From assembly GCA_040954595.2 (NCBI GenBank), contig CM082577.2:11875654-11939653 (forward strand): 64,000 bases of DNA, read 5' to 3'. The notes beneath the pieces are model-generated. The model was not told where the DNA came from, did no database searches, and was given only the letters and a program-made list of their open reading frames with translations. The position numbers and the translations under genes are program-made. Shown piece after piece: positions 1 through 36,557 of the stretch. How positions within the stretch are numbered: position 1 is the stretch's first letter; every line of letters begins with the position of its first letter. Source of the DNA: Balanoglossus misakiensis (Eukaryota; Animalia; Hemichordata).

Positions 1-553
1 CCCATTATCTTTCCGGCGTCTTCTGACAAATCTGTGATCATCTCCACGATGGATTGTGGACATGACACACACTGGTCTATTGTCTTTCCATTGCTTTGTT
101 AAGACTTGCCCATCCCTAAAATATCGCATCCCACCCTGTTGTGTACTCCTCTCCCACTGTGGATCTTTGAACAAAAAAGGAAACCCCCGCCTCGTCTTCA
201 AAACAGTCCCACAAGATAGTGTCCCATGATCATAAGTGCATTTAGCAAATTAGGTGGTGTATAGTAATTATCAAAATAAACCTGGTATCCCTGCGCATTA
301 ATTCTTTCACCTAATCTCATAATAACATCATAACCCAACTCATTCTCAGCTGTCATCAATAGGACATCAGCGCGATGAATAAAGAAAAACTTACCTTGCA
401 CCACAACGATTGACGGTTTATCGGTTCATCTCTGCCGGATTCTTCTGACGAGTCAGTTGAAAACTCATCGAAAACATCATCGGAGTCACTGCTACTTGAA
501 CTTTCACGGTCACTCATCATTGTACAATCAAAACAAAACTTCCGAAGACTCAA
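1..553 (-). mobile_element. piggyBac-type transposase remnant (internally deleted, frameshifted)
   Basis: Acidic Ser/Asp N-terminus (356-553). 'LGYDVIMRL...YQVYFDNYYT' catalytic-region motif (198-404). 'QWKDNRPV..MSTIH' read on the minus strand near 45-95. Confidence 0.8.
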
Positions 554-1263
554 TGATGAATATTCTGCAGATAATGAATAATTCAGTTAGGTTGCAAGTC
601 ACTGCGTAAATATTTGAATAAAAAATGCGCTGACTAATTTGCATATTTGCAATCGGAATTTTTTCGGCGCAGCAGAAAACGCATCGAACTGCTTTATAAC
701 AACTACAAGTTATGGAAAAATATTCTGTATCTTCAATTTGTTTAACAAATTCCACCAATCTCTTAATTCAAACTCCAGGAATTGATGGTATATAGTCACA
801 CCCTCCTAAAACACTGAATGTAAATAAACTTCAGGAATGACCATTTCTCCATTTCAAAGCACTTCTGAAGTTCACTGGCATCAACCATAAAGTGCTGTTC
901 CAAACTCGGTATCGGTTTTGGTGAAAACCTGTAATCATATTTGGAAAACAATATAACTCAGAAAATACTACTACATGACATACTTTCTATTGTAAGCAAA
1001 ATCCAAAAATGTTAAGATCGTCATACTTTAACTAGACTAATGACACTTTAATACTCTAGCTGCTCCATAAGCAATGACATCAGAGTCTATTGTGATGATG
1101 CCATAAACTTTGCCACACATCGACAAATAGGCCGTCTGGGCATCTGCCTCATATGGTGCAACTATGTATTCTACGTTATGTTCACGAAGACTCTATAAAA
1201 ACAGGCGTTTTTAATTAATATAGAAAATGTGTATCTGTTTTCTGTTACAGACAGCATACTTAC

Positions 1264-1525
1264 TATTTTTTCTCAATGGCAAAGGCGATGTTGGTGGTGT
1301 GGGCGTCAACAGCTCCTCCCCCAAGTACTTCACAAAGTTTGCTGGGAATGACCCAGCAAACTCCCTACCTCTGACTGTACCAATAAGCCATCCTCTTGGC
1401 TGTTGAGGGGTACTATGGAACTTCCATGGTAACCCCCCAACTTCAATGATATCATCCGTTTTCATAGACAGTTCAGTACTGCTCTCTGCAGTAAAAGTAT
1501 GACACACTTTGTACAGGAACATTTT
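1264..1525 (-). pseudogene. SH3-domain exon fragment, copy 1 (PI3K p85-type SH3 with Pro-rich tail)
   Basis: LYKVCHTFTAESSTELSMKTDDIIEV...GWLIG...GSFPANFVKYLG, followed by PTPPTSPLP and a GTAAGT splice donor. Confidence 0.75.
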
Positions 1526-1774
1526 CTTTTGGGAGATGAATAAAGACAAAAGACAACTTACAAGTCACAGAAACAGAGGGATTCATTAGTTTCATGACTT
1601 TATTATAATATGCTTGGTGTGAATCCTGCTTGCTGATTGGCAAGAGCCAGGGTTTATATTCTCGCAAAAAAATGGACCAAGAACAGTGAATTGAAGGTTA
1701 CCTAAACCAGACACTTTTTTTCTCAAAATGGACAGTTTACTTACAAATCAGATGTGGTTACTGAACATGTGTTC

Positions 1775-2090: not shown

Positions 2091-2139
2091 AGGATGGCGT
2101 GGCTGAATGCATGACTTATCCCACTTTTATATATCCATA

Positions 2140-2420
2140 CCAGTACACTCTTCTCCAAGATTGACAGCACCGACTAGCTTGTTGATGCCACCTTGATTAC
2201 ATATTTGAAGGTCTTTTTTGATGGCCATTTCATCGAAGACCACTCCGCCTGAATAACCCGAAGTAGGGACTTCTTTTCCGCTGCCGTAGCTTTCATCCAC
2301 TGGAACATGTCTTCGTTGAATCCGGGTTTCTGATCAATTACGTTTTTGTATATTTGGAGTAGTCTTGAAGAAGGCAGGACCATATACCCACTTTGTATAA
2401 TGTCCTCGTACCCCTGGGTG
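2140..2420 (-). mobile_element. P-element/THAP9-like transposase fragment
   Basis: GYEDIIQSGYMVLPSSRLLQIYKN...PGFN, then after a frameshift GGVVFDEMAIKKDLQI...LVGAVNLG (first catalytic Asp motif). Confidence 0.75.
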
Positions 2421-2809
2421 TTCTTAACCATAACTGTTGCGCAAACCTTATGATTTCTCTTTCCTGTTTGCCTTGCATGACATCCCTTACCTAATTCTGG
2501 TACACTGAAAATATACCTAAGGTATACTTTCTCAAACAAAATAGGTACTATTTAGGTATACCTAAAAATGTACACACAAATAGTTATACACCGAATACAA
2601 ATCACATGTGGCATTGGCAAGCAGATGTGACCTTATATACAGTATAAACATGGAAAAAAAGTTAACAACAAACATGTCTAAACAAACACATATGACTATC
2701 AACTTCTTTCAGCCAACCCTTAGAGAGACAGACAAGCAGACACGCTAACTGACCTGCAATGTCAATGTGTTATTACCCTTATGAAAATAAAGGCCTTGTC
2801 GCGATACAT

Positions 2810-3060: not shown

Positions 3061-3512
3061 GCATATGCCCCCCCCCCCCACACCAACCGGGATAATGATG
3101 ATCCGCACGCAACCACTCCTGCCATACCATATTCCTTTCTCCAAAGCCACCATTATGATGTGAATTGCTGAATGATTGTGCTTAGTTGAACTACTTTCTA
3201 TGTACATTAATATTGATACCTGGGATATAAAAATAAAGGATATTAAGTGCAAATTGCATTTCTTCAAATATTTAATAACCTAACATACACTGTTTTCAAA
3301 TACAGTATTCCACATTGGTTTAAAGTTATGAACATTCTCGAAGAATGTACAATGACGCTCTTGAACTTATTAAATTTCTTTACCACCAAAAGTCATTGGA
3401 AAAAAAGGCTGTCCATGTCACAATAATATTTCATTGAACCAGGTAGACTTCACAACCAGTCTACAATGGTACACCCTCCAAACTAAGTGTACCCGTAATT
3501 ACCCCCTTTATC

Positions 3513-4765
3513 TTACATGGAATTGGATATTATAAAACAGTACGATTTGCGAAAATGCGCTTGTCTGACAAAGGATACATGCTTGCACATCATGTTAAGA
3601 AAGGCTAATTCTGCTCTGCCTGTAATGGATTCTATCATTTGTGGTATTGTTTGAAGGATATTTACCGACCCTACAATCTGTAAATCAACATATCGTTGAG
3701 TACCATAGAACAAATTCATCAGATTGCCATTCATGTCGTCAAAAGGAAAGCATGAGTATGACCAAAATGGACCCAAATCCCAAACACTCAACGGTAGATG
3801 AAGAAGAGAATGCATATTTAAAGTACAATGATGCAGTCCGTACAATGACTCAAACATGTACACAAAATGCCTCAATAAAACTTCACTTCTTTCAATATCA
3901 AGATCTGCAACACTATCTTTGCAAAGATTAAACATCCCTTCAACATAGCTAGAATAGTGATAATAGTACATTGCTGGCAGTAAGTCTGCTAAAATAGGCA
4001 AAGAATAGAAAAATAACCATGATCTCATTCCTGACGCTTTCCAATATTTAAAATGAGAACTTATTGCTCTTGGAATTCGTGTAATTATTGCAAGGGGTTT
4101 TATCTGTAGGAGACGCTCGTCAATCAAATCCAGATATCTTATCAATGAAAACTCCTCGGAAGAGTATTAAGAACCACAGACTATGTAAACATTTCGCTAT
4201 ACCCATCAATGCCAAGTGCATATAATCAATTGCAGTACTTCTAACATAGTCATAGAATTTAAAATTCATTAAAAATGAAGGCCCCTTTATTCCATTGACT
4301 ATTTTCCCTGTAGCAACTGATTCCATAGCATTATCCAACTAGTAACCGTGTCCAATGATTCTTTAGCTGTTCTTGGGTCTTTAGGGGGATCATCTTTGTT
4401 GTATGGGAAAACATGTACATGGCCCCTTTTACTTGAAGGGTGGGTTTTTCCTGGCTGCGAACATCTAGGACAGCCAAACTTACCATTAAATTGCACACAG
4501 TTCATGGCCAAACTTTTAGCTGGGAGATCAGCTGTACCACATAAAAGAAATGCTTTAATATTTACAATCCCATGCCCATCGACTGCAACATCAAGACCAG
4601 AAGATTCAAGAGTTTTTAGACTCTTATGAAGTGGACCAGTGAAATGAGGCATAAAAGGCTTGTTTTTCGCCAAACCATAATCCAGCGAAAATAATGTTTT
4701 CTTTAAATCGTCTAATCTTAGGGGGCAACTCATTTATGGAGATATACATTGGCCAGATTGGAAAA
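3513..4765 (-). mobile_element. EnSpm/CACTA transposase remnant (several frameshifts)
   Basis: WPMYISINELPP...AGLWFG; CGTADLPAK...QFNGKFGCPRC; GIKGPS; IDYMH; FKYWKAS...WLFFYSLP; NMHSLLHL...GPFWSYSCFPF. Confidence 0.88.
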
Positions 4766-5054
4766 TCCATCAACATCACATATAAAATAATATAATATGA
4801 ATAGAATAAAACTGATTCACAAAATATCAAAGAGCTACTTGTTGGGCATTTGATTTTAAGTTGGATGGTGTTTGTGTATTGCAGAGGGATGTTTGTGTGC
4901 AGTAATCACGCTGTACATACCATGCAAGCTCTTAAGTTTGGCATACTCCGTTTGCAAGTGTTCAAAATCACGGGTTAGTCTTTGATTGGCTTGTTCTAAG
5001 GCAGGACAGGATTCACAACTACCAAATGGAGTTGCTATGTCACGATTAAACTCA

Positions 5055-6265
5055 TCGTGGAGGGAAGAAAGCGCACGTGATGCGATCTTTGCTAACTTTG
5101 AAGCCTGGCGCGTGTTTTTCACTGGAAGCAGCAAGAGTCGTTGGTGGCAATAATTTCCAGTAAAGTCCCGTTTCGTCGGCATTGTACAGCTGCTCGGTGG
5201 TGTAGTTTTCATTTTCAATAACATCTTTGAGTTTTCTGATGAACGGCTCGACTTCGTTTTCATTTGATGACAGTTTTACGCCCTGGACAGCTATCTGACG
5301 GATACCGTGTCTCTGTTTGAAATTTTTTAACCAGCCGGTGCTTGCTTTGAACTGGGACTGATCACCATGAAGCTGCTCGTCAAACCACTTTGTTTTTTCG
5401 GTGATGATCTGGCCAGATAACGGGGAACCCCTACTTCTCTCTTGAGTAAACCACGTGAAAACGGAGGTCTCCAGGGCATCGTCCTTGGCTGTCTTCATTA
5501 TCTTTCGCTTGAGGCCGGCGTCGGTGTTCATCTTGCTGGCATAGTCGCGCAACTTTGCTTACTCTTCCTAATGTCGGTTATGGTGGATTTCCCGACACTC
5601 ATGTGAAGGTTTAGTAGCACTTTCACCTTTTTCAAGACGATCGATGATCAATAACTTGGCGTTGATGTCGAGCACGTGACGCATGCGTTTCATTGATGAC
5701 GTAGCCATGATGACGTAGACAGTGATGGCGGAAGCAGAGCGATGTCAGTTCGATGTTACCAGATCACTACTGGAATTACGAATGGTCCAATTTCCCAAAA
5801 CCCAAGGGTTTTTATACGCTTCTAGCTAAGCAGTTATCACTTTTAATTTTGACGGATTGCCACAAAATGCTGCAAACGTTTAAAGAAGAAGCCGACCATC
5901 GGTCGCAACTTTTAGCAAGGCCGACAAAGGGTATGCGGCTGAACTGACCATGCCATTGTTGAGCGGTTTATTTTCACACCTCTTGCGATTCCATCCAAAT
6001 GATTCATACCTGGGGATACAAAACATTAACACTTTAAGAATTAAAACAAAAGGCAAATGGGCGGTAAGGTTGTTTAAAGAAATAACTTTATTAAAGAGGA
6101 AAGTGCTGTACGATAATGCCATCCTTTGAAAGCAAGGGCCGCGACCATCAATCAATGATTAAGCAGGGGTATACGCCAACATGTAGACTTTGTGGGGGAC
6201 ACGGAGTGAGTGCGGATAACCGAACAATTCGGATAATTGACGTTCGGATAATCGACGTTCGACTG
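5055..6265 (-). mobile_element. pogo/Tigger (CENP-B/Jerky-like) transposon, 5' half with TIR
   Basis: ATG at ~5708 (MATSSMKRMRHVL...), then CENP-B HTH (WFTQERSRGSPLSG...FKASTGWLKNFKQRHGI) and LYNADETGLYWK. Terminus TA|CAGTCGAACGTCGATTATCCG at 6265. Confidence 0.88.
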
Positions 6266-6274
6266 TATGTATTC

Positions 6275-7286: not shown

Positions 7287-7604
7287 TCATGTGACTTCTA
7301 TGGTTTCGCTGTCAAACCTCAGGCTTGGTTCCCTAATGATGGCATTTAGTGGAGATAGGATGATAACCGTGCTGCTCGATGCCACTTCTCCGTTCTCTCC
7401 AATGTAGGGAAGGGACTCGGAAATTAGTGATTTTCCGTAGCCTGTTGGTAGAAGACCAATACAATCCCCATTCAACGATGCCTTCAAACAGTCTAGTTGC
7501 TTTGGCTTGTATCCATAGAACCGTACAGATTGTTTCCTTTTAAGGTTTGGCATACAAACTTCAACTTCGAGGTTAGTGCCATGTTTTTTACTTTTTGCCT
7601 CCAC
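7287..7604 (-). pseudogene. RecQ-like SF2 helicase N-terminal fragment (probably Academ-type cargo)
   Basis: KPKQLDCL (Q motif), LLPTGYGKS (motif I), VIILSPLNAII (motif Ia). Confidence 0.75.
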
Positions 7605-7664: not shown

Positions 7665-10600
7665 GGCCAGAGAGAAAAAGAATCTTGTTCATCGGGGGGG
7701 GGGGGGGGGGGGGGTTTGTGTCATCGGTTTCAAAATCAGGCCGACCCCCCCCCCTTCACACAGGACCAAAAAATGATGACCCCCCTTTGACAGACCCAAA
7801 AATATGATGACCCTCACGGTGTAGGTGCCTTTGTACGCGGTTCGTTTTCTCTTGGCTTTGTGCTTCTTTCCGCAGAACATCACACGTCACTGCCTTCAAT
7901 TTATCGCCTTTGTTCCCTTTTAGGGACAGATTGTGGCGAGTTAAGTACTTGTCCAGCTCTCTTACAGTTAATTTTTTCAGTGTACCATTCAACACATGAT
8001 CCATCCAGTCATACTCTTGATACAGCTTTTCTTTCTTTTCCTGTTGTTTTTTCTTCCTGTCACCTTCTCTGATCTGCCTCGTCTGTTTTAAGGTGGTAAG
8101 ATGCTGGAGACAGGATGTTACATCCTCTTCGTCTACCGAATATTTTACGGCAGTCTCCTTTATGGCATCCGTGTTGTCAAGCGATAGGTGGTCACTCCTA
8201 AAGAGGTTGGTGATGTTGACACGAGGCTGCCAATCATATGGCTGCCTGGGCTGACCAGGTTCGCTCACATTAGGGGTGTCGAAGACATTCATGAAATGAA
8301 ATGATCTACTTTGATCAGGTATTGGTTGAGGTATCTTCTCCATCTGCGGTCCAGTAAATGGGTGATCATTACAAAATTTGCAAATGTTCCCCTTTTCAAG
8401 GCACCCTTGCTTCAAGTACTCCATGAAAAGTTCCCCTACATGAAAGTGGTTTTCTATGAATGAAAACACCTTTTCTATGTAGGCTGACCCTGGAACTGCA
8501 CTCCTGGATTGAATACCTGTTTGCTTGGCATAGTCATGTATGTAGCCAGAGTTACTGAAGAAAAATAGGTCTTCCTCCGTCTCTGAAACATGTGCCTTGA
8601 TAAATTCATGTAAAACAGGTGCACCATCAATTCTTCTGCAGACTTCATCAGCAACTATCCATGCATTTCTTTGCATTCTGTCCTTCTCATGGCTTTCATA
8701 GTCACCGACACTCATATTTGCTATTTCCTCTTCACTCATACCTTCAAATCTCTTTATCTTTATTACTCCCGTCCACAACAGCATCTCCAATAGTTCAGTT
8801 CAGTTCAGTTCAGTTCAGGGAATAGATATCCTTCCGGATAATGAAACATCCCTCCTGGTAAAACATATGCTAGTGATGGTCGATACAATCTTTGTTGCGC
8901 TGGTAACTGTCATATTTGTTCTTAAGAGTTGGTGCTGCTGGCGTTGACCACCCAATCCGGAAGACTGTTCCATTTGTTGACAACCCTCGGCGTAAATGAA
9001 TACTTTCTAATGTCTAGTTTTGTTGCAGGTTTGTGTAATTTGAAAGCAATTGACCCCTGGTTTTGGATGAACTGTTAATCTTGAATGCAATATTACAAGA
9101 ATCAATGTCGTTTAGAATTTTGAAAACTTCGATCATATCTCCTCTCACTCTCCTATCCTTCAAAGTCGGTAGGTTCAAGGCAGACAGACGCTGCTCATAG
9201 GGCTTATGTTGGAGTTGAGGGATCATTTTTGTTGCACGACGCTGCACCTGTTCGAGAATGTCAATGTCCTTTCTTAGCCAAGGTGACCAAGCCTGAACCG
9301 AGTACTCAAGTCGTGGCCTTACCAGCTGCTTGTACAAACGCAAAATTATATCCTTGGATTTAAATACAAGAGTTCTTTTCATCATCCCCAGAACTTTGTT
9401 TGCCTTTTTCGCTGCTTCTACACACTGTCGTGATGGTTTCAAGCTCCTATGAACAATGACACCCAGACACTTTTCTTCATCAATACTTTCCAGTGGAATA
9501 TTATTCATGTTGTAGATATGGTTTGGATTCTTGCTCCCAAGGTGCATCACTTTACATTTTTTTTACGTTGAAGCTCATTTGCCAGTCACAGGCCCACGTG
9601 TGTAGCCTATCCAGATCTAGCTGTAAAACTGTTCTGTCGTCTTTATTGCCAACACGGTTATATAGTTTGGTATCGTCCGCAAATTTCTTGATTGCTGATT
9701 TAATTCCCACATCGATGTCATTGATATAAATCAAAAATAGCATTACAATAGCTGAATTTGTTCGTTCAGCTTCTCCCTGGCCACTGTCACCTCTTGATCT
9801 ATGACACCTGACACGGTAACTGGAATCATGAAGCATAGCCAGTTCTGCTTCTCGAAATCTAACTTCCAGATTGGATACTCCAACTCCTGGGCCAGCATCT
9901 GTGAGGTCTGCCCAGTTGGGTTTCACCTTTGGTAAACAAAGATCATCCAGAACTTCTGAAAATGTTGTACAAAATTGGCCCATCTGGTGAAAAGCTGCCA
10001 GAAGTTCTTCTGTCTTGATAGGAAGTTTGTTTAACTTTGATAATAGGTCAGATGCACTATCACAGACTTGATTGATGACTGGTATAACACGTGTTGCTAA
10101 CAATTAACTGCTTTTCATCAGCATATCAAACTGCATTTCAACTTCCGCTATGGCAGTTTCCAGTCTATGCTGAAGATGTTTGAGTCGCTCAACTTCATAC
10201 TTTCTATGCCTGCAGTGTTCATTACTGGTCACTTTTTTCACATCTTCTTCCTCTGTCATTTGACTGTACAAGGCGACGTCATCATGCAAACGTGCACAGA
10301 TACTTCTGAACCTTTGACTATACTTTGGTGAACTGGCTTGCTGCACTTCAAATATGTCAGGATAAGTGTGACGCAGTCTTTGTGTTTCGGAGGCCCACAC
10401 AGTCCCTGATGATCCAATGATAGCTTTGGGTCTAACAATCACGAAGTGATTATCCTCATCAGTAAGTAAGTGTTCAGTATCATTCTCAGTTACTGCTCGC
10501 TTGTTGAAAATACGATGAGCGGAAGGTGTAATATAAACTTCCTTCTCTGGCCAGTCATATTTTGGAAGCTTCTTTGCTTGATCAACATCAGTCAATGTCA

Positions 10601-12059: not shown

Positions 12060-12480
12060 GGTACAAACCCAAGCATGGAGGAGGTATTTCTTTTTCCAGT
12101 TTTGACGATCCTATTAGATATATTTGATTTTCAATTGCAAGCAAATGGCCTTGGTGTTTTGGATTTTTTTTGGATAGTCTGCAGTATAATTTATATGCCA
12201 GGTACACTGTCCTTGTCAATGGATTGTACAAGCTCAGGAACCTTCAGCATGACAGCCACAGCATGTACTATCTGCTTCTCAATATGTTGTGTGCCATTGA
12301 ACAACTTCAACAAAAATCCATTTGCATCTTCAAATGGAAAGCAAGACAAACACCACAATGGACCAACATAGAGAACATCATCAGGAAGGTGGTGGATCAG
12401 CTGATGAACATTGAGAGTCATTGCACTTTCCTTGTACATGACCGGAAACATGGCAACAAACTGAGCTAGAAGTGCCCTAC
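12060..12480 (-). mobile_element. Second EnSpm/CACTA transposase fragment (different family member)
   Basis: MTLNVHQLIHHL...VGPLWCLSCFPFEDANG...FNGTQ, paralogous to 3513-4145. Confidence 0.8.
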
Positions 12481-21374: not shown

Positions 21375-21689
21375 TTTAAAAAGTTTTGCAATCGCAGGGA
21401 CTTGTGGGTAATATCTTTATTTATAAACAGACTCATTGCGCAAGTGCAGCGCGACGACCCCTTCACTTTAAATTAAATCCTCTAAAGAAAGAAAGAAAGA
21501 AAGAAAGGTAAAACTTACCCGCTTAAATTTGGATGCGGTGCGGTCAAATTATGCTGCTGTGATTCATCCCCTACAGCGAGTTCATGCTGATCCTATTACA
21601 AGGAAACGCATACATGTGTATAAGGTTAATCCTGACCATCAAGTACAGAAAACATCTCTCTTTTAACTGCTAATGTGTGACTTATTTTA

Positions 21690-23296: not shown

Positions 23297-24329
23297 AAAT
23301 TTAACACAAACAGGCACGCGTCATACACGTGAGTGTGAGTGTCCTACATGAGGAATGAATGGGGAACAATATAGTTACATTGTGACGATTTAAATAACAA
23401 AAGCGGGTTATTTGGAATCCGTGCGTGCAGTGCGTAACGGTGTTGCTGGCCCGGCGACGCCACGAGTAGTACGGACGTATACACATTGGGTAACTAGAAT
23501 AAATAATAATTAAATAAGTAAATAAAATGCACATACGATAACATTTATTTTACATGAAAACTTACCTGGCTTTGTTCGGTTTCTTCTTTTGCATTCTCAC
23601 GCTCAAGAATAATAATTTTCTGTCACTGACTGGCCGAAAACTCGGGAGAACTGTCCGAGCTCATTGTAATCAATGGAATACAATGTCATGAAACAGTATA
23701 CCGAAAGAATAAATGGTATCAGTCGGTAGATGGCACACTTCGGTAATCCTCACCAGCTATGGTACACGGTATAGTATACAAATAAAGAGATCGGACCAGC
23801 CACTGCTGTAAATGACGCACTTCTTTAATCTTCACACGGAAGAACCTGCCTTCACTCCTCCTCACAACCATGCCTTTTTTCCTCCTCAAAACTCGTTCTT
23901 ATATACCCCACATCATTTACATATTCTACTTCTAACCAATTAAAATCCTAATTTTTCAATCGTCCAATCAGAACACAGACCTCGGCCTAATCCCTCGGCA
24001 TTCTGTATCAACCCTAAGGTAACCATGGTATTTCATTTCAATCATGTTAGGTTGGCGCGGAACTAGGGAGTCATTGCCATGGGTACATGCATTTCTTCTC
24101 ATTTCTCCTCACTCATCTACTACTAGGGTTAGGGTTAGGGTTCCTCCTCACTCCTAGGGTTAGGGTTCGGTTATTTGTACTGTATAAATAACATTTTAGG
24201 GGAAAATAAATATAAAGGAATAAAGGTTATGAATATATATCATGACTTTCCTATATTGCATTTTCTTTTTGTATGTGTGAGAATGGTGAATTTAAAAATG
24301 GAATATAATTTTACTTATCCTTACACACT

Positions 24330-25050
24330 CTACAATACCAGGCCTTCCCCCTTTTTGGGGGCACATTTTAGTCCAGCACATCTCAAGTGCACCCAGTGGT
24401 ATTTACACCTTGGATTATCACACCCAACATATTCCTCATCATTTTCTGGTTTCTGACAATAGCAGAACAATTCTCTTGATGTTTCATCATGCCTTTCTTT
24501 CTCATTTCTGACATGTTTTGTCTCCTCACGTCTACTGATTAACTCTGGCAAAATGTGCCTATGCCAAAATTTATCCAGATTCTGAAGCAAACTTTCACAA
24601 AAGCAGTTAGCTATCATATTTCATGGCAGTATTCATTTTTACCTTCGCAAAATCACAGTATTTTACGTTGTACACTAGCATTTCGTGTTGTACTGGTGAT
24701 AGTATCTGTGAGCACATTTTAGCTTTCCATTTCTATCAAGATATGACCCCTTGTGACCAATCATTTCCTTTACCGGTACACTGCTATCTCTGAACATGTA
24801 TGGACATTTAATTTCTAAGAGGCAATAGCCATGACATTCACAAGTAATAAATAAATGCCATTTGTATTAGCACCAATCCAAGGTTTCTCTTTCAATATTC
24901 TCATACCCTTTTTTTTACTTTACCTTGAACATGACTAAATGATGTGTTAAAAACTTCCTTTTCATGGAGCAACATTTTAGTTTTGAGTATGTAGGAATAT
25001 GTGTTGTCCCATATGGTTCAAAACTATGCAAAAGGATCCTAAACAATCAA
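24330..25050 (-). mobile_element. YqaJ-like exonuclease plus PHD finger module (transposon-borne)
   Basis: PHD: FCYCQKP...VGCDNPRCKYHWVHLRCAGL. YqaJ: PWIGANT..GI..CECHG..LLEIKCPY...LK.AHRYYHQVQ. Confidence 0.8.
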
Positions 25051-25099
25051 CTTTCCATCTCACTTTATAACAATGAACGTCATACAGGTTAATTACATT

Positions 25100-26330
25100 T
25101 ATTATATTCATTAGCCATACATGCAATTGGAAAAGCAATAATCATGAACAGAACACAGTGACCGAAGGATACTTTGACAGTTTGAGATGACTTCGTTTCC
25201 CTTGTTGAAGTTTGCAAATATATGATGACATGGTAGTTGATACATGCAGTGAAAAGAACAACTGCATTTTAACATTTCATGAATTCTATATTGCTTTTCT
25301 CCCACCTGTACCGGTACATCACATATTGTAAAGTTATCTTCATGATTGTCCTTAATTTCATACTGATTCTTCTGTAATTTTTCAAGCTGCTTTGAAATCT
25401 ACAGCAGGGGCAGTGCAAATATTTGAAATGGAAGACTGAATGTGAGTGTCACCAGCCCATCTTGTATCTATTCGCGTTTTCATGGAATTAAATGTTGAAT
25501 AATCAACATTTTGAGCTATAAAAAGCCTATCAATGGAGTCATTTAGATGACACGACCGTCCCAGATATGCCTTCAAATTCTGGTTGTGTGAGACTTAATC
25601 CTGTTGTTTGTGTTGTTCCCTAGTGTAGGCAGTGTTCTTCTGTACAATTGAACCCCCATTTCTGTACAATTATCCCAGTTGTCTGTGAAGTAAAAGGAAA
25701 AAAAGTTTTAGGGCTCAGCTTTGATAGCTCTGTACGCTTTTTTTAAGTACATTTCTTCTGAATATGCATACACCATTGCTGAGACAGTTTTCATGATATC
25801 TGACTTTCACTTTTTTTGATATCTAAATCACCAATTCTTTTCTTTAAATATTTTAGAACATGAAATGTACATAATAAAATGGCGGCATTAGGCGTTGTGC
25901 ATTTTATAGCAGATATTTCTGTAAAATCTTTATCTACAATGACAACTTTTACCTTACTGAGATCATTCTTAGCAGCAATGTGATCACATAAGTTATGGAT
26001 TGTGTCTTTCTTCTCATTTTTCACAAAAGCATATCCAACAGATCGACCCTAACCTTGACCATCTTCTATAAGCAATAGATACAGTGGGTACCCTTCAATA
26101 TTAACCTTGTAGGTCCCATCTACAAAGAGGACATCTGGATAGCTGTTGAAAAGATGTTTCATTTCGCTCGTCTGAAAAAAACAACATAATTTCAAGTTAA
26201 TTATCATGTGACATTTCAACAACAGTTGTAGCCTGGCGATCATCTTGTTCAAGTTTTAATAATCTGTTAACAACCTTCTGACCTTCACACCTACCCTGTG
26301 CAGTATGCCCATTTAAGTTTTTCTTGATGT
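25100..26330 (-). mobile_element. MuDR/MULE (ZSWIM-like) transposase remnant with SWIM finger
   Basis: YPDVLFVDGTYKVNIEGYPLY; VIVDKDFTE...LLCTFHVLK; SWIM CSCSFHCMYQLPCHHIF. Confidence 0.85.
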
Positions 26331-27173: not shown

Positions 27174-28910
27174 TGGAGTGACCGTGACATTTCCCAGCAA
27201 TAAGATATCAGTAAAATTAAAAAATAACAGTTACAGTAATAATACCTGCAGGTTATACTTATAAACAATCTTAGATACACTTACCACCTCTTCCAAGAAT
27301 GAACACTTTGTATTCTTTTTTATCTGCAGGCCACACAGCAAAAATATCTTGCCCTTTGTGTTTTACACATTTAATAGTGTCTTTAACAACAAGCATCTCA
27401 TTGTCGTGGAATCGAATGAGCAAATATTCTGCAAATTCAATACAATAATAAAAAAACAGTTCAATCTTTGCAGCCCAGATCAAATTACGACAAAAATCAG
27501 ATTTGTACGATCAATTATTAAAGGAGTTTCGTATTTTTACGAGAAAAATATCAGCTGGGGGCATCATTTCTAGACCGTAATCAATTCATTCCGGCCTCAA
27601 AGTTGTCGATCGGTTGTAAAAATAAACTTCTGCAGTACATCAAAAGTTGCCTGACCTAATTATCAGTGCACTCAAAGGTCACAATTTGAGACAATTAGAG
27701 CAAGGTCAACAACCTATTCGAAGTATGCAAATTAGGTAAAGACGCACTCACAAGTCAGCAAGATGTTCCTGATACTCAAGTTTGCATTTCATTTGGCAGC
27801 CCAGCAAATTTGAGCAAATATTCAGTTTTTTTATCAAGCATTGCTGCTTCTGCCAATAGTTCATCAATAAACTTTCCCATATTTCGCAGCTTTGCATGTA
27901 ATTGATCCAAAGTGTATTCGCTTTTAGGGTCATAGTTTATGAGTGGAGCACCAGTTTGGCCACGCTGATGAGATTCTGCCCATTATACACATGATGACTG
28001 ACAATGAGGGCAACAGTGTATTTTGATGACGGGAGGCACTGCTAGTCACAACTAAAACAGTCTTGTTTTCCCGAGGGCACGTACACAGTCACGGCCGGCC
28101 ACGGCCTATAGCAACTATGTCGTCTCATTTGCATAGCGAAAAGAGCGGCAAGCACCCAGCGAAACATTTTGCCCAAAAACTACAAAAGGCTAGGGTATAT
28201 CCCACTTTCTTGCAAACTACGCACTGTCTAAGCACTGCACACAGCGAAAGACGCACACACACACATGTACCGGTATATATGGAGAGAGCGGTGATCCAGT
28301 ACTAGCCGCTTGTGTGTATTTATTGCCGCCAAAAAGTAAATAGATATAGGCCTGCACAATCTGGTGCACAGTCTGATGATTTGCCAATTGGCAACTATAC
28401 CAATACAATAAAGAAAAAATGGTGTCTTATACTGCGGTTATATGAATAGCATATAGCCGGTCAGGAAATACCAGAAAAAAAACCTTAAAAGTGAATGGTA
28501 AATGCTCTGGAAACCCTAATGCAACGCAATTGTACGATTGCGCATAGTGGTCAAAGTCCTTGGCGAACGAAAAGTGACCTTGGTGATGGTTGACGTACAT
28601 GGTGTTACTGTGTTTTCCCACTGATTTCACAACGTGTGTGATGACCCTTTCCGATCGTGAACCACCATCTCCTCCTACAAAAAGTTCACAAACCTCTATA
28701 TTGATAGAAAACAGCGATTTCTTAGTCGGGTACATGTATATCACCGAATGATACGCCCTCGAACGGAGTGTCAGGAGTGTGTCCACTATGTGCAACGTAC
28801 TGTCGGCTGTAATTTTTTTGCAGCAACTTCAAGATTTCGCTCTGTATAGCCCTTAGCTAAGGCGAGGCAGCGGTTGTCTTCATACGGTTTACCTGTGTTG
28901 GGACAGAGAA
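27174..28910. repeat. Segmental duplicate of 14144-17705 with internal deletions
   Basis: Near-identical ORF pairs 15389/27748, 15777/28063 and 15910/28217. Continues directly into the homolog of 17385-17705. Confidence 0.92.
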
Positions 28911-28912
28911 GT

Positions 28913-29712
28913 TGTGACTGACTCACAATAGAAAAGGAACGATACACAGCAATTGGTAGGCGACTTCAGACTTTATTGCGATGTACATGAATATACAACA
29001 TATGATGGAGCACACACAGCCAAAACTACACGGCCCGTGCCTTTTATATCGTCTGCTCGAAACAAATTTTAAATGCCAGTTCACGCGTTTATCCACGTCG
29101 CTTTGAATCAGTACGATATCACCGACTTTCACAGTGTTGTGTTTGACACCATCGGTGGTGAGCAGGTGTCGCTCTCTTAGTGCAGTTAAGTATTCAGTTG
29201 ACCACCGTTTCCAGAACACGCGTTGAAGTGACGATAAATGTTCATAGCGGCGATTGAGACCTCGAACATTCGACGTGTAGTCCTCGGGATCACTTGGAGG
29301 GAGATAAGGTAGTCCGGTAATGTTTCTCCCGTTGACTAATTGCGAAGGAGTTAGTGGCGTCAGATCATCGGCGTTGGACGACACATAAGTCAATGGCCTC
29401 TATTTCGACGAGTAGAGTTTCCAACTCAGCATACGTTACACGAGATTTCCCGAGCACTTTCTTTAGCGCGGTTTTGGTAATCCCAATCATACGCTCGTAG
29501 AACCCGCCGAACCAGGGTGCGCGTTTAGGGATAAATTTCCAGGTAGTGCGGTGTTCACCCAATAGGGACTGTACTTCTGGGTTAGTCATAATGTCCTTCA
29601 GTTCATCGGCCGCCGATATAAACGTTGTCGCGTTATCGGATATAAGCGTAGAAGGTGTCGAACGACGAGCCGCAAATCGGCAAAATGCAAGCATAAACGA
29701 TGACGTGGTCAA
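28913..29712 (-). mobile_element. BEL/Pao LTR retrotransposon integrase, C-terminal domain and partial 3' LTR
   Basis: ISDNATTF; WKFIPKRAPWFGGFYERMI; LTPSQL; FWKRWSTEYL. Followed by TATAAAAG...AATAAA...TCACA, an LTR-like end at 28913-29070. Confidence 0.9.
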
Positions 29713-29973
29713 GTCCGATTTTCAAACAATAAACTACACGAACATGTACATAATGTTGTCAGAAATAAAGATCGAACGAAAATTTCACAAATGGGAACCT
29801 ACTTGACGTGTTTGTCGCCGAATCGTAAACGCCGTTAACGCAGCGCCGTAAAACTGATGACTCTCCGCTACAAACTGACCTTGCGCATGCGCACATATAA
29901 AAAAAAACGCGAGTAAAACACGTGTCACGTGCTCTATACATCGCATTGGCCAAAAGTTTTGTAGCGTGGCAGA

Positions 29974-30168
29974 CATGGATGTTACTGATGTAAAGGATGT
30001 TTTCGACGCCATTAAATCTCGTTTCGCATTTAATTTTACGTTAAAAATGAGCAAGCGAGCACTATAAGCTCAGTAATCAACGGAAGAAATACATGTACGG
30101 GTACTATCCTTCCGACAGGATTTGGAAAGAGTATGTGTTTTGTTTTACCGCCGCTAATTCTAGATGAA
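29974..30168 (+). pseudogene. RecQ-like helicase first exon (Academ-type), frameshifted
   Basis: MDVTDVKDVFDAIKSRFAFNFTLK..EQ...ILPTGFGKSMCFVLPPLILDE|GTAAGT. Confidence 0.75.
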
Positions 30169-30529
30169 GTAAGTTGTTCTCTTCCAATATTTCGTCTCTT
30201 TAGATGTGGGTTAAGGTTTTAAATGTTTATTACATTTTCCATGTTTTGTGGATATGTCTGTTTTGTTTTTATTTATGTTTTGATTGATGGTTTTTTCCAT
30301 GTGTCACAGTATGTATGTATTTGTTCACATGCAATGCTATACTTCATGCTGTAACTTTGTTTCAATCTTATCTTAAGTAATACTTTTTAAAACACAAATA
30401 TCACAACCAGGTTAAGACACTAGTCATTTGTTATTGAATTGTGAATAAATTGATTATACAAAATAAATGGAACTTAAATTAAAACTCCAAAAGTATATCA
30501 AACTTTGAAAAAAATTTGTTGGAGTTTAT

Positions 30530-30835
30530 ACCTTGTTTTTCTTCTTCCTATTCACTGAACTGGGTGTGCTTATCCTTCGTCGTTTGTTTAATCTTGGTGT
30601 CTTCCATGGTGATGTTAACTTTGTTTTCCTCCCAATTATACCTGTACTCTCTGCCACATCCTGAAAATCACGACCTGCTGATATGTAGGCCTTAAATAAA
30701 GCGCGCACATTATTTAACAAATTGGCGCAACCCGTGCACAAATATTGATCTGGACTGCAATCTACATTAAATTCTGAACATAACATTTCAGCTGCTGTTA
30801 AATCATAGACAGTAGAGGGGGGAAGTCCAGAGCTA
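30530..30835 (-). mobile_element. Academ-like zinc-finger/basic exon fragment fused to an element terminus
   Basis: YLCTGCANLL...SPWKTPRLNKRRRISTP...K|GT donor. Terminus AAGTCCAGAGCTA at 30835. Confidence 0.45.
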
Positions 30836-31609
30836 TACAGCTACCAACCTTACTGCATTAGCATACATCCATTTATATATGCATGCATGCATGCATGCAT
30901 ACATACATACATACATGTAGTTACATTGTAACGATTTAAATAACAAAAGCTGGTTATTTGGAATCCGTGCATAACAGTCAGTGTTGCTGGCCCGGCGACG
31001 CTACAAGTAGTACGGACGTATACACATTCGGGAACTAGAGAAAATTCATATCTTCAATCACATTTGCGATATTAAAGATTTCTTGTTGTGCATACCTCAG
31101 ACACATTGACTGATGACAAGACATCACAACGTAAACAACACAATAAATAATAATAATAATAATTAATTCAATAAATAAATCAATAAAATGCACGTACGAT
31201 AACATTTATTTTACATGAAAACTTACCTGGCTTTGTTCGGATTCTTCTTTCGCATTCTCACGCTCAAGAATAATAATTTTCTGTCACTGACTGACCGAAA
31301 ACTCGGGAGAACTGTCCCAGCTCATTGTAATCAATGGAATACAATGTCATGAAACAGTATACCGAAAGAATAAATGGTATCAGTCGGTAGAGGGCACACT
31401 TCGGTAATCCTCACCAGCTATGGTACACGGTATAGTATACAAATAAAGAGATCGGACCAGCCACTGCTGTAAATGACGCACTTCTTTAATCTTCACACGG
31501 AAGAACCTGCCTTCACTCCTCCTCACAACCCTGCCTTTGTTCCTCCTCAAAACTCGTTCTTATATACCCCACATCATTTACATATTCTACTTCTAACCAA
31601 TTAAAATCA

Positions 31610-32025
31610 TGCGTGTCCGTGGGCTTGAATTCCGCGTTTTGAGAGCATAGTTTGTTTCGTAACTGGCGAAGCAGTCCGCGTTGACCGATGTGTAGCTGTA
31701 GGTCGACAATGTCTTGGTCGCTGAGGCACTTCAGTACTTCGGAGGATGTGACCTGGGAGGTGGTTAGTGAGCTGATAGTGTGTTTTGAAAGACCCGCCGC
31801 TTCACATCATTCAACAAACCTGTAGTCTTCTGTCATTGTAATTGGTGACTATAGGGGGTATGCCGGGGAAAGGCCGAAATTAATAGCAGTTTCGTCGAGC
31901 GACATAAAAAAATGTCCGCTGTCAGTCTGGGCAATAAACCACGAGAAAGCCTCGTCCCAGGACCAACTACCACATCGTCGATCCCAACTCCATTTAAACT
32001 CCAATAAAACAAGTGTTATTGTACA
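31610..32025 (-). mobile_element. Probable DIRS/Ngaro-type retrotransposon 5' region (SAM-like ORF1 start)
   Basis: Minus strand reads MTEDYRFVE*CEAAGLSKHTISSL...VLKCLSDQDIVDLQLHIGQRGLLRQL. Confidence 0.5.
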
Positions 32026-32420
32026 CTTAAAATCCTAATTTGTCAATCGTCCAATCAGAACACAGACCTCGGCATTCTGTAATAGTATTTGTGAGCACGT
32101 TTTAGCTTTCCATTTCTATCAAGATATGACCCCTTGTGACCAATCATTTCTTGTACACTGCTATCTCTGAACATGTAGGGACATTTAATTTCTAAGAGGC
32201 AATAACCATGACATTCACAAGTAATAATGCCATCTGTATTAGCACCAATCCAAGGTTTCTCTTTCAATATTCTCATACCCCTTTTTACTACTTTACCTTG
32301 AAAATGACTAAATGATGTGTTAAAAACTTCCTTTTCATGGAGCAACATTTTAGTTTTGATTATGTAGGAATGTGTTGTCCCATATGGTTCAAAACTATGC
32401 AAAAGGATCCAAAACAATCA

Positions 32421-33815
32421 AGGCACTACGGTGCTCTCTTATCATTCCTGTATGTAGACGGGGTAAGACCCCACTTTCAAACCTTTAGACTCGTCTAAAT
32501 CACACAGCCAAGGAAAATCTGAGTATGGTCTGCCATGTTTGGCGAGAGCATGCGACGTTTTGAACAGAATAACCAGTCTGCTAACAACTTCTTTATTCAA
32601 AGACAGCAGAGATTTTTCGGCCCGAGTCTCGCCAGGTTTCGCCTGTTTGGCCTCGAGCTTACCAACATTCCTGCAATGACTGACTGAAATGGCATGAGCC
32701 TTAACAGAATCCAGCTTAAAATTAGAACATCCTGTCACAAATGTACCCACAGCCTCATATTTTCGACAAATCTCGCAGTACATTTTCCCCTTACCATTAC
32801 TGACAAATTATAATATGCTTGGTGTGAATCTAGCTCGCTGATTGGCTGGAGCCGGGGTTTATATTCTCGACAAGAAGACCTAGTACCTGGACCCTGAACA
32901 GTGAATAGTTTTTAAAAAAGTAACCGAAATAGAACACGTAGAAGGGAACGCGCCTGAATAGAACGCACTTTATGAATTCTATTGGCGGTGGCATAAAATC
33001 GCGTGACTTTAGACATTCTAGAACACGTTTGCACGAGCTCAGCTTGCGTGTTCTGGAACAGTGCGCGACGAGGCCCTTGAACTAGCACGATTTATTCTCA
33101 ACCAAACAACCGATTTGAAAAAATGAAATTGTTTATCTTTATCAAGCAAAAGCATATTATAATGAGGTTATAAACGGTGCGCTCGGGTATTTGGTACGGA
33201 TATAAGACCTCTCAGGTGAAAATTAGCATATTTGGGTGAAATAATCACCTCGCTTCGCTCGCTTCGCTCGGTGATTATTTCCCGCCAAATATGCTAATTT
33301 TCACCTGAGAGGTCTTATATCCGCAACCAAATACCCTCGCTAGCCGTTTATAACCTCTAAATACGACAGCCAATTGTATCTCGATTTCCAAGCCTCCTGA
33401 AATTCGCGGACCCGGACGTTACCATCATAGGATTTGTTTCTCATACGCACCTCTGCAGTAGAACATCGTGCTTTTTTAGCAGCTGGGGGAGTATAGCCTA
33501 CCAAAAAACGTTCCATTATTACAAAAATTGAAAAAAGCCAGAGCAGAAAGTAGGTCGACGGCAACAAGTTCAGACGACGCCATTAATTACGAGGCGCGAA
33601 AACCCCTGCGCAGCATGCATGCGCAGTAGTCTGTAAATGGTCGCGCCCTATGATAGTCTCTGACGATCGTGAGATCGTGTTTATTTGCAGTTTAAACCAA
33701 GAAATACTCGTGGGAAAGTCACTATCCCGCCGGACTACCGGCAAAAACATTTTACTGGTCCTTACAAAAAATTACTAGACTCGGGATAGTGGGCCAGCGT
33801 GTATGTCGAACCCTG
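32421..33815 (-). mobile_element. hAT transposon 5' part (ZNF862-like, TTF zinc finger) with TIR
   Basis: REFQEAWKSRYNWL / MYCEICRKY...FVTGCSNFKLDSVKAH...AKHGRPYSDF. Terminus CAGGGTTCGACAT at 33815. Confidence 0.85.
32806..33357. mobile_element. Non-autonomous element with a ~190-bp terminal palindrome, inserted in the hAT ORF
   Basis: Inverted repeat 33164-33357 centred on (tcgct)n. Its other end recurs at ~1603-1692, and a palindrome arm recurs at 14108-14141. Confidence 0.75.
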
Positions 33816-36557
33816 CACTTTCTATCTCACTTTATAACAGGTAAAATATTTGTTAACTTATTTTTCATGCCAAAAACAATGAACATCATGCAGGTAAATT
33901 AAACTTATTATATTCATTAGCCATGCATGCAATTGGAAAAGCAATAATCATGAGCAGAACACATGGACCAAAGCATACTTTGACAGTTTGGGGCGGCTTC
34001 TTTCTCCTGGAAGTTATTTTTTTAATCTCCAAACATGTCCCTGTAAAAATGATAACATGGAATGTCTCTCTGGATGTATAATTCTTCAAAGTGAGATCTC
34101 CATTTCAAATACCCATAGCCTCCATATCAGTGAATAGTATATCTCTACAAGAAGAGGATGTTAACAGAGAAGATATTTTCAATGGAACTTTATTCCAATA
34201 ATAAAGTCGTGTACACTTAATTGCACTCAATAATATGGCATAAAATATTACATTTGGCCAGAACCGTTAGACTGAACGGACGGTTGCGCGGTTTATCGTC
34301 ATTCCCGATATCGTCATGCTGAGTATCAATCGAAATGATGGAAAACGCGCATGGAAGAGCATACGCCCCTGAGAAGGCAACCAGTCATGATCACAAAACA
34401 GGACACGGCCAAAAAGCTTCGTTTCTCACCAACAATGATGAAAAGTATTTAGGTGACATTTTGTAGGACTGGTTCGTAAGTCCCCCTATAAAAAATGGCC
34501 GTGGCTATTTTTTAGATTTTTACAGTTCAAAATTGTTACTTCTCCTGCATGCAAATATGATGACATGGTAGTTGATACATGCAGTGAAAAGAACAAAAGC
34601 ATTTTAACATTTCATGAACTCTATATTGTTTTTCTCTCTCCTGTACATCACATATGTTAAAGTTATCTTCATGACTGTCCTTAATTTCATACTGATTCTT
34701 CTGTAATTATTCAAGCTGCTTTGAAATTAAAATCTACAGCTGGCTTGCCGATGAGGGCACGATCTCTCTAGTGAAGGACTTGCGTTCCTCACTACCCTGA
34801 AAACGGATAGGAGGTTGAAAAATCTGACGTTGATATAAAAAGTAGTCAATCGGTCAGTCAGTGCGCCATCACGCGTCGGAGTTCATTTCTTCTCTTGTGC
34901 ATAAAATCACTCATTGTGCAATATACATGTAGTGCTGAGTAAACGAAGTAATTTTGCTTAATATATCTGAAACACTTCAACTTAATATCATGACTGCAGT
35001 TGGAACAGAAAACACGGTGGAATTACCTGGTAACCTTGGTAACACCAGCAATCCTCTTTTCACGTTGAAATGTCACAGAACCACTGAAAGTAACTCGTGA
35101 TGGAGTGAGAGGAAACGGGGAAATTAATGGGAGACCTTTTCTGGTTGTGTGTATAGGGCATGTCGCTGAGTACATCGGTACACATGAATAACCAGTTGCC
35201 AGGTGATGGATAAGGTCGGTGGGACTTAGGGTGGAATTTCTACGCTCACCTCGGATGACTTCGGTTTCACATATGGGACTCGTTTATAACACTGAGCGAG
35301 TACATGCATTTCCCAAGGGGGTGGGGTGTGATGAGGTGGGGGCACTGAATAATATTGAAATGAGTTTTACAATTACCTTCAACCAAGATCGGGAATTTCA
35401 CTCGTGTCAGTCTATCAGAACTTGGACACGTATAGTGTTAGCCCCAAACCTCGGGTGTATCAGTCGTAAGTGCAAGCTCGATAATGAGTGACAGACAGAC
35501 AGACAGACGGACAGACAGACGGACAGGATGGTACTGAAATACTCAAACTAATTCCGTGATTAATTTAAACAACCGTGACGAATGTAAGATACAATGTACC
35601 AGTATGTGAGTTGATATCGATACCACGTTGAAGAGTGACACGTGACTAAAGGGGAAACTCAAACTTTAAATCGGGGATTCATAGAAATCTCTATGTGACG
35701 TTGTGTGTGTGTACACCTGAACCGTTGATAGTAAGCTAATTTTGATTTTATGTGTGGATGGATATTCTCGTAAATTTGTTACATTATGTAAAACGAACGC
35801 CACACAAAAGTTCTCCATGCCAGAAGTCGGTTTCCTTCCTTGCATTTTGCCATTTTTTTATACTTCTCTGGGAAATGATGACTCCATTTTCTTGGCTAAG
35901 TTGTCACGTGACAGAGTCTTCCAAAAGAGTAAACAGACCTGAAAGAAATGTAGATCAACAGTAAGAATTGTTGAAGCAGAGTTAACAGAAACATAACACC
36001 AGCCAGTGAGCTACATAGCAAATTACCATTTCCAGCACATTTAACATGATTGGCATTTTGCCATAAAAGCATGATGTCTTAGAAGTCAACAAACCTTTGA
36101 GTTCTCGCAACAGCTTGTTAATAAACCGCATCAGTTGAAGTATAAATCTGGACGTGGCTTCCCAAAGATGATGTCCTTTTGTCTGTCACCGAGGTCGATA
36201 TCACTAGCTCTAAGTAGATAACGGGGATATGGGCCATTCGGTTAGTTGATTGATTTATTGGTTGAATTGATTCGAGTTGAGTTGAGTTGAGTGGTTTGTT
36301 ATGATATCACAAATACAATCTGATCACAGATATAAATTAAATCGGTGAAAATTCCGTCTCCATTCCACTCAGTCATATTTCTCTGGAAAAGCGACGGTAA
36401 GCAAATAAGCAATTCATAGTAACAGACTTGGAATTAAGAGCGAAATGTATTAAAGTTAGATCTGATGACGTCAGACGCAGTCAGAATTGCTACTCATAAC
36501 CTGCGATTCTAAACCACGACACATCACTACTCGGATAGGCTCTCCGCAAGCTAATTC

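What the first reader, a model, noticed from the sequence alone, without database searches (positions are those of the whole stretch)
1..34800. Candidate flamenco-like uni-strand piRNA cluster: a co-oriented library of fragments from about a dozen transposon groups
Seen in sequence: more than 20 recognisable coding fragments lie on the minus strand. They include piggyBac, P-like, CACTA x2, Tigger, Zator-like, CR1, IS3EU-like, Polinton-like, MULE, YqaJ/PHD, BEL, DIRS-like, hAT, RecQ, TatD, zinc fingers and SH3. I found only two plus-strand coding exceptions (LINE end at 21.7 kb, RecQ exon at 30.0 kb). Fragments are mostly 0.2-1.5 kb, disabled, directly joined, and no intact host gene lies among them. 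The mosaic stops at ~34.8 kb. Established: Drosophila flamenco-type clusters have TE fragments oriented antisense to one long precursor. Inference: a plus-strand transcript here would yield antisense piRNAs against many mobile-element families. Unlike flamenco, this locus is dominated by cut-and-paste DNA transposons and Polinton-like pieces rather than gypsy LTR elements.
Basis: partly seen in the sequence, partly recalled or inferred. Interest (0 to 1): 0.92.

Follow-up and report, generated by a model that had tools for sequence, protein, structure and literature searches.

The report
One-way transposon archive in acorn worm
This 35-kb stretch, likely from an acorn worm, is packed with pieces of many unrelated mobile elements that nearly all point the same way and has been duplicated and reshuffled, a layout that likely marks a locus making transposon-silencing small RNAs, although that is untested because no RNA data were available.

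Summary
In 1-34.8 kb, Pfam hits at E<=0.001 fall on 16 of 219 minus-strand ORFs and 1 of 231 plus-strand ORFs; as separate units the count is 12:1 (p=0.003), or 14-16:2 with homology-based units. The flank shows only an intact RYamide-receptor-like gene whose best hits are acorn worms. Three corrections. Some parts arrived by ordinary nested transposition: a 4.4-kb TTAA-flanked element with both ends, a LINE inside it with a 6-bp target duplication, a Tigger end at TA. 14.9-25.4 kb is collinearly duplicated at 27.2-34.7 kb, with only 3.0 kb shared, so deletion and gain outrun point mutation. The Polinton, DIRS and Zator labels were not confirmed. Contig depth argues weakly against a multi-copy cargo element. 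No RNA run was listed, so piRNA output is untested, and AATAAA is enriched on the supposed precursor strand. Best reading: 3' end of a one-strand, transposon-antisense piRNA cluster (0.55); main rival a long intron. It fails flamenco's gypsy criterion, and DNA-transposon-rich and one-strand clusters are published for molluscs. The scan noted similar layouts in three other genomes. Interest 0.42.

The parts
1..586 (-). piggyBac-type transposase piece, runs off the window's left end; splice donor retained near 395
   Evidence: DDE_Tnp_1_7 E 1.2e-6; donor seen
834..1564 (-). SH3 exon, 71-nt GT..AG intron, XPG-I (flap-nuclease) exon; partial paralogous copies at 1764-2082 and 6266-6460
   Evidence: SH3 E 1e-7, XPG_I E 1e-15, intron, copies 9-14% apart
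2130..2551 (-). P/THAP9-like transposase piece (weak)
   Evidence: TNP-like_RNaseH_N E 0.009
3453..4767 (-). CACTA/EnSpm transposase piece 1
   Evidence: 38 homologues, most with PF02992; extent by tblastn
5055..6266 (-). 5' half of a Tigger/pogo-type element; its end sits at a TA inside the third XPG exon copy, 3' half lost
   Evidence: HTH_Tnp_Tc5 E 2e-16; filled versus empty paralogous site; TIR family recalled
7290..7560 (-). RecQ-like helicase piece
   Evidence: DEAD E 3e-4; 43% to the plus-strand piece over 35 aa
7665..12020 (-). Near-complete DNA transposon: TTAA on both sides, imperfect GGCC-starting inverted ends, unclassified transposase ORF 11,014-7,867
   Evidence: inverted arms (I4); one Ptychodera protein covers all three ORF pieces at 50-64%
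8794..9745 (-). 5'-truncated CR1-like LINE inside that transposase, pentamer-repeat tail, 6-bp target duplication at 8788-8793 and 9746-9751
   Evidence: RVT_1 E 0.077; CR1 label recalled from motifs
12152..12703 (-). CACTA/EnSpm transposase piece 2
   Evidence: tblastn E 1e-22 to 1e-24
14251..14724 (-).
   Evidence: rva_4 E 4e-18
14917..25398 (.). Duplicated block, copy 1 (10.5 kb, 3.1 kb shared with copy 2)
16212..17991 (-).
   Evidence: no usable relatives
19001..19834 (-). TatD nuclease ORF, open over 278 codons
   Evidence: E 3.5e-23; nearest Atlas cluster 97% eukaryotic, commonest Mollusca
20362..20970 (-). Second C2H2 array, paralogous to 16,510-16,836
21674..21829 (+). Possible LINE 3' end, plus-strand exception (label recalled)
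   Evidence: translation; no Pfam hit
24333..25049 (-). YqaJ nuclease plus PHD finger piece (duplicate at 32,079-32,420)
   Evidence: YqaJ E 8e-7 on the duplicate; PHD E 0.0014
25069..26255 (-). MULE/ZSWIM transposase piece (partial duplicates at 33,875-34,015 and 34,550-34,727)
27202..34727 (.). Duplicated block, copy 2 (7.5 kb, 3.0 kb shared)
28926..29721 (-). Integrase end of an LTR element (DUF5641; BEL/Pao assignment recalled)
   Evidence: DUF5641 E 5e-11, rve E 0.0096
30034..30168 (+). First exon of a RecQ-like gene with splice donor, the one profile-supported plus-strand exception
31609..32026 (-). 418-bp terminus-less segment present only in copy 2, flanked by a perfect 8-bp direct duplication; strand and DIRS-like label unconfirmed
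32445..32807 (-). zf-C17orf113 finger piece (hAT association recalled), inside a 1.4-kb segment present only in copy 2
   Evidence: E 2e-10
36118..45769 (-). Boundary gene, not part of the mosaic: RYamide-receptor-like GPCR, stop about 1.4 kb from the mosaic's end

Best explanation
This is a one-orientation archive of young mobile-element pieces that is likely the 3' end of a one-strand piRNA cluster, predicted to be read on the plus strand from a promoter left of the window. Shown: elements jumped in by their own means, nested in one another; deletions and a local duplication cut most to short, largely coding pieces; 14-16 separate units face minus and 2 face plus; the block stops about 1.4 kb short of a converging host gene. 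Inferred: insertions antisense to the precursor were kept because they yield silencing guides and sense ones were lost, and deletion shortens each entry without losing its guide value. Untested: the transcript, its strand and the piRNAs.
For: Bias 12:1 blind, 14:2 to 16:2 with homology units (p 0.001-0.004). About 46% of 34.7 kb is coding-derived by my own unit list, 98% of it minus, against no transposon hit in 18 kb of flank that includes a 6.8-kb intron. Three independent true insertions all face minus, so orientation is not inherited from one donor. Pieces are young: assembled contigs of other copies or alleles differ by about 1-3% for piggyBac, CACTA and Tigger (records 2, 3, 4, 9). Lowest-depth contigs cross junctions (records 1, 5). 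CpG observed/expected is 0.72 against 1.06 in the flank (1-kb tiles p=1e-5), compatible with a methylated, transcribed domain (PMC8857917 passages). The same layout yields piRNAs in slug (PMC11615739 section 9).
Against: No RNA evidence of any kind. AATAAA occurs 51 times on plus and 28 on minus, against 21-33 expected on plus, which a simple unspliced precursor would have to read through. No genome-wide background for orientation could be computed (no genome held). CpG loss is also explained by methylation of young transposons wherever they lie. Antisense bias is also a property of introns. More than half of the block is unannotated and its orientation unknown. Contig depth covers 1-18 kb only, comes from one sample that may be the source of the assembly, and the tool warns it is no copy number.
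Confidence: 0.55

Rival explanations
1. The block lies in a long intron or 3' extension of a plus-strand gene that starts left of the window. Sense insertions are purged because their splice and polyA signals damage the transcript, and antisense ones pile up with no role as guides.
For: Antisense fixation of LTR, LINE and, in chicken and fly, DNA transposons in introns (PMC2911107; PMC3088655). The pieces keep splice sites. CpG depletion fits gene-body methylation.
Against: No plus-strand host exon was found between the block and the GPCR. Purging alone does not explain enrichment: the neighbouring GPCR intron and intergenic DNA hold 0 profile hits in 117 ORFs. The excess of plus-strand AATAAA counts against this reading too.
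Confidence: 0.2
2. An untranscribed transposon graveyard in a low-recombination zone near satellite DNA, whose orientation comes from biased insertion (for example relative to fork direction) amplified by local duplication.
For: 24 of 26 self-matches are direct, so duplication does inflate the count. Satellite arrays fill 52.9-64 kb.
Against: After collapsing duplicates the bias stays at 12:1 to 16:2 across unrelated mechanisms (TIR, LINE, LTR). An intact gene and 18 kb of ordinary DNA separate the block from the satellites. A near-absolute mechanistic bias shared by all these classes is not known to me (recall).
Confidence: 0.13
3. The block is the cargo of one large mobile element, such as a Helitron, that captures gene pieces in its own orientation and makes tandem copies.
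For: Many pieces lack termini and keep introns, as DNA-level capture would give; the collinear duplicate resembles a tandem copy; the left end is not visible.
Against: No Rep/helicase profile hit among 450 ORFs. No perfect hairpin plus CTRR end on either strand of 1-36.5 kb in a strict scan. Depth across 1-18 kb swings from 28 to 58,000 between bins and junction-crossing contigs sit at the lowest level. Three parts carry their own insertion marks.
Confidence: 0.07
4. The block is read on the minus strand as read-through from the RYamide-receptor-like gene, sense to the pieces, acting as a sense substrate for ping-pong or simply as inert downstream RNA.
For: The gene points into the block and no canonical polyA hexamer lies on minus between its stop and the block. 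Read-through clusters exist in mammals (PMC11615739). AATAAA is not enriched on minus.
Against: Productive read-through clusters there are transposon-antisense; here they would be sense, which gives no reason for selection to keep them.
Confidence: 0.05

Closest known systems
One-strand, transposon-antisense piRNA clusters of the slug Arion vulgaris (PMC11615739, section 9 read)
   Same: Densely packed transposon fragments on one strand, in an invertebrate outside insects
   Different: There the piRNAs and their strand were measured; here neither is. Fragment classes are not given in the section read.
piRNA clusters of Lymnaea stagnalis (PMC6128900, 12 passages read)
   Same: Enriched for young elements and particularly DNA transposons (Kolobok, hAT), little host coding sequence
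   Different: Also enriched for gypsy; the passages seen give no orientation figure or single-locus anatomy
flamenco and flam-like clusters of Drosophila (PMC10643416, 12 passages read)
   Same: Fragments mostly in one orientation, locus recognisable from DNA alone
   Different: Bias there is driven exclusively by gypsy LTR elements and serves follicle cells; here no gypsy was detected and the bias spans TIR, LINE and LTR classes. Syntenic clusters there are 227-1,085 kb; only 35 kb is visible here.
Intronic antisense bias of transposons (PMC2911107, PMC3088655; passages)
   Same: Antisense excess relative to a long transcript
   Different: A purging effect that does not raise the density of coding pieces; no host exon found here

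Membership tests
flamenco / flam-like cluster | Enrichment of gypsy LTR elements, which drive the strand bias | tested here: not met
   No gypsy-type profile among 450 ORFs; the one LTR piece is DUF5641/rve; criterion
flamenco / flam-like cluster | Strong one-strand orientation of transposon fragments | tested here: met
   12:1 to 16:2
flamenco / flam-like cluster | Expression in ovarian somatic follicle cells from one promoter | not testable with these tools
   No RNA holder listed; promoter side outside the window
One-strand transposon-antisense piRNA cluster (general) | Dense transposon fragments, little or no host coding sequence | tested here: met
   16 of 225 versus 0 of 117 ORFs; about 46% coding-derived
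One-strand transposon-antisense piRNA cluster (general) | A long precursor on the strand opposite the fragments | not testable with these tools
   No RNA run; indirect signs split (CpG loss for, AATAAA excess against)
One-strand transposon-antisense piRNA cluster (general) | 1U-biased piRNA-sized reads from one strand | not testable with these tools
   No small-RNA run listed
One-strand transposon-antisense piRNA cluster (general) | Enrichment for young elements with close copies elsewhere | tested here: inconclusive
   Near-identical other contigs for 3 families in 1-18 kb, but alleles and paralogues cannot be told apart and there is no genome background
Read-through cluster downstream of a gene (piC-DoG) | Upstream gene on the strand antisense to the fragments | tested here: inconclusive
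   The only visible neighbour is sense to the fragments; the left side is unseen
Helitron with captured cargo | 3' hairpin followed by CTRR, or a Rep/helicase gene | tested here: not met
   0 sites in a strict scan of 1-36.5 kb, both strands; no profile hit; signature recalled
Helitron with captured cargo | Whole mosaic present in many copies | tested here: inconclusive
   Junction-crossing contigs at lowest depth in 1-18 kb point against it; depth is not a copy number and 18-35 kb has no such data

The most novel reading that the evidence does not exclude
The locus edits itself like a spacer library: besides trapping whole elements it takes up terminus-less internal pieces of mobile genes directly, by repair-templated insertion that leaves a short target duplication (the 418-bp segment with its 8-bp duplication), fixes them antisense, and turns over about two thirds of its length within 3-5% sequence divergence. 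That would be an acquisition route for piRNA memory that does not need the element to jump in, covering all transposon classes in a deuterostome.
Probability: 0.1. Interest if true: 0.85.

Novelty: new member of a known kind. Interest (0 to 1): 0.42.

Why it matters
If piRNAs come from it, this is a one-strand transposon trap in hemichordates, where my three literature searches (listings only) showed no described cluster, and it would extend DNA-only detection of such clusters beyond gypsy elements. The internal duplicate is a built-in before/after pair for measuring how fast a cluster gains and loses entries, and for asking whether entries arrive by transposition or by capture. Without RNA it remains a well-documented candidate of a known kind.

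Tried and rejected
No whole genome is held, so no genome-wide strand test, repeat library or look at the upstream window. Contig support exists for 1-18 kb only (16 of 4,612 pieces shown); none was obtained for 18.7-38.7 kb, so copy number of the duplicated half, of the 418-bp segment and a single-copy calibration on the GPCR remain open. Polinton test: viral contigs 0 of 26 candidates confirmed; representative search 1 marginal hit, E 1e-3; Atlas no usable hit. TatD context: metagenome contigs 0 of 77 confirmed. LINE C-terminal piece: no solved-structure match below E 0.29. Read-through translations of 20 frames gave nothing new. Rfam gave 1 sub-threshold match on a microsatellite and ARAGORN none, so no SINE orientation data. 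The idea that the plus-strand RecQ exon belongs to a two-gene, opposite-strand element (AcademH) rests on recall; the paper was not held. Rejected: 'all pieces are terminus-less captures' (three have insertion marks); 'Zator-like and its neighbours are separate short fragments' (one element); a general target-duplication rule for copy-specific segments (9 examined: overlaps of 8, 1, 4, 1, 1, 0, 22, 0 and 7 bp at the breakpoints as drawn). Supplements of the cited papers were not seen and may hold per-cluster orientation and class tables that bear on novelty.
Full report
Setting. The window is animal DNA of 34-57% GC per kb. An intact-looking GPCR gene lies on the minus strand at 45,769-36,118; its second exon matches 'RYamide receptor-like' proteins of Ptychodera flava (69%), Glandiceps talaboti (60%) and Saccoglossus kowalevskii (58%), 4 hits in all (exons by tblastn). 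The host is therefore most likely an acorn worm (inference). 52.9-64 kb is satellite DNA with 128-, 157- and 145-bp units. No whole genome is held.

The observation. I scanned every stop-to-stop ORF of 40 aa or more starting in 1-34,800 against Pfam without choosing by strand: 231 plus and 219 minus. At E<=0.001, 16 minus ORFs and 1 plus ORF hit (p=8e-5). Between E 0.001 and 0.01 there were 6 more minus and 2 more plus hits, several plainly spurious; they are not counted. Collapsed to separate units (piggyBac, XPG/SH3, Tigger, RecQ, rva_4, two C2H2 groups, TatD, MULE, DUF5641, YqaJ, zf-C17orf113) the count is 12:1 (p=0.003). These tests assume 50:50 and independence; no genome background was available. 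In 34.8-52.8 kb, where only ORFs of 55 aa or more were scanned, 3 of 120 hit, all GPCR exons. The Polinton, DIRS, Zator and plus-strand LINE labels come from recalled motifs and were not confirmed.

How pieces got in. At least three parts carry their own insertion marks. (1) 7,665-12,020 has imperfect inverted ends beginning GGCC and TTAA on both sides; one 1,181-aa Ptychodera protein covers its ORF from 11,014 to 7,867. TTAA with RR..YY ends is the Kolobok rule (PMC9587614, 5 passages), while the protein motifs recall Zator; the family is unassigned. (2) A 952-bp 5'-truncated LINE splits that ORF between two adjacent codons, with a 6-bp target duplication and a pentamer tail. (3) A Tigger-type 5' end sits at a TA in one XPG exon copy, while the paralogous copy shows the empty site. 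All three face minus. Other pieces keep splice donors and an intron, so they came as DNA, not as spliced RNA.

How pieces were reshaped. Self-comparison gave 26 matches, 24 direct. Nine of them form a collinear series: 14,917-25,398 is repeated at 27,202-34,727, across several unrelated donors, so an already assembled mosaic was duplicated. The four longest blocks differ by 2.3-5.2%, shorter ones by up to 12.4%, so more than one event is possible. Only about 3.0 kb is shared out of 10.5 and 7.5 kb. Whether each difference is a gain or a loss cannot be told from two copies. One copy-2 segment, 31,609-32,026, has no inverted ends or tail and is flanked by a perfect 8-bp duplication: either a templated insertion or a microhomology deletion in copy 1. 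Other segments show 0-22 bp of overlap, so there is no general rule.

Copy number. Two assembled DNA runs of one sample hold the stretch. Laid on 1-18 kb at 85%, depth per 600-bp bin runs from 28 to 58,349 in X1. A 584-bp contig identical to 2,977-3,560 has depth 16.6, the lowest shown, and a 1,454-bp contig of depth 25.4 bridges the LINE junction at 9,745. Other contigs match the CACTA, piggyBac and Tigger pieces with 1-3% differences. This fits a single locus built from low-copy, young families with high-copy non-coding repeats in between, and not one multi-copy cargo element. It is weak: the tool states depth is no copy number, 16 of 4,612 pieces were shown, and the sample may be the source of the assembly.

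Indirect signs of transcription. CpG observed/expected is 0.72 in the block and 1.06 in the flank (tile medians 0.65 and 1.07, p=1e-5). In invertebrates methylation concentrates on transcribed gene bodies but also on young transposons (PMC8857917, 12 of 20 passages), so this does not discriminate. Against a simple plus-strand precursor, AATAAA is in excess on plus (51, expected 21-33) and not on minus (28, expected 24-26); this may only mirror T-rich introns of the minus-strand genes (inference), but a precursor would have to pass these sites.

Mechanism. The simplest account joining orientation, density, diversity, youth and turnover is selection on a plus-strand piRNA precursor that ends before the converging GPCR: elements insert, antisense ones are kept for the guides they give, and deletion trims them. 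The insertion, deletion and duplication steps are shown in the sequence; precursor, piRNAs and selection are inferred. I put this at 0.55, a long intron or other plus-strand transcript at 0.2, an untranscribed graveyard at 0.13, a cargo element at 0.07 and sense read-through at 0.05.

Comparison with what is known. It works like a one-strand transposon-antisense cluster but is not a member of the flam-like class, whose bias is gypsy-only (PMC10643416, 12 of 30 passages). Clusters enriched in young DNA transposons are described in Lymnaea (PMC6128900, 12 of 13 passages), and one-strand clusters over densely packed fragments in a slug (PMC11615739, 12 of 32 passages and section 9). Intronic antisense bias is documented (PMC2911107, 7 passages; PMC3088655, 12 of 15 passages). 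Searches for piRNA with hemichordate names (20 of 26 listed, 15 of 97, 20 of 76) showed no title or abstract start describing clusters in this phylum; I saw listings only and most subscription papers are not held. Earlier notes of this scan report the same layout in three other genomes, none with RNA support, and none for acorn worms; they are not evidence.

Verdict. A real and well-marked feature, probably a new member of a known kind, with one detail worth a test: whether terminus-less pieces are captured directly. Interest 0.42.

Noticed in passing
window 7,665-12,020: TTAA-flanked DNA transposon whose transposase homologues (P0001, P0002, P0004) have no Pfam family; ends fit the Kolobok rule, motifs recall Zator. 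Its ORF sits at the lowest depth while its ends are high-depth, as if many non-autonomous copies depend on a rare parent.
   Followed up: partly
window 834-1,564: An SH3 exon joined by a GT..AG intron to an XPG-I nuclease exon, in a small multi-copy family; an unusual domain pairing, donor unknown.
   Followed up: partly
window 26,669-26,849 and 29,715-29,895: 181-bp inverted pair, 95% alike; the second copy lies just upstream of the plus-strand RecQ exon and may be the end of an element with genes starting from both ends.
   Followed up: partly
window 36,118-45,769: RYamide-receptor-like GPCR gene, minus strand, no canonical polyA hexamer on its strand between the stop and 34.7 kb.
   Followed up: partly
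window 49,514-49,650: 75% match to 18,568-18,703 in the same orientation, outside the mosaic and beyond the GPCR; an older relative of the ORF next to TatD.
   Followed up: no
window 52,880-64,000: Three adjacent satellite arrays (128, 157, 145 bp) sharing a strong G and T excess on the plus strand.
   Followed up: no
window 24,124-24,170: Short run of telomere-type TTAGGG units inside a non-coding segment of the mosaic.
   Followed up: no
window 33,164-33,357 and 47,166-47,367: Two compact nested palindromes, probably miniature inverted-repeat elements.
   Followed up: no
window 34,830-34,865: TATA-like word followed by initiator-like words on the plus strand just right of the mosaic, seen by eye; could be chance.
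   Followed up: no
window 3,559-3,560: Contigs branch here: one goes on with other sequence and another joins with about 750 extra bases, as if the window's CACTA copy carries an internal deletion.
   Followed up: partly
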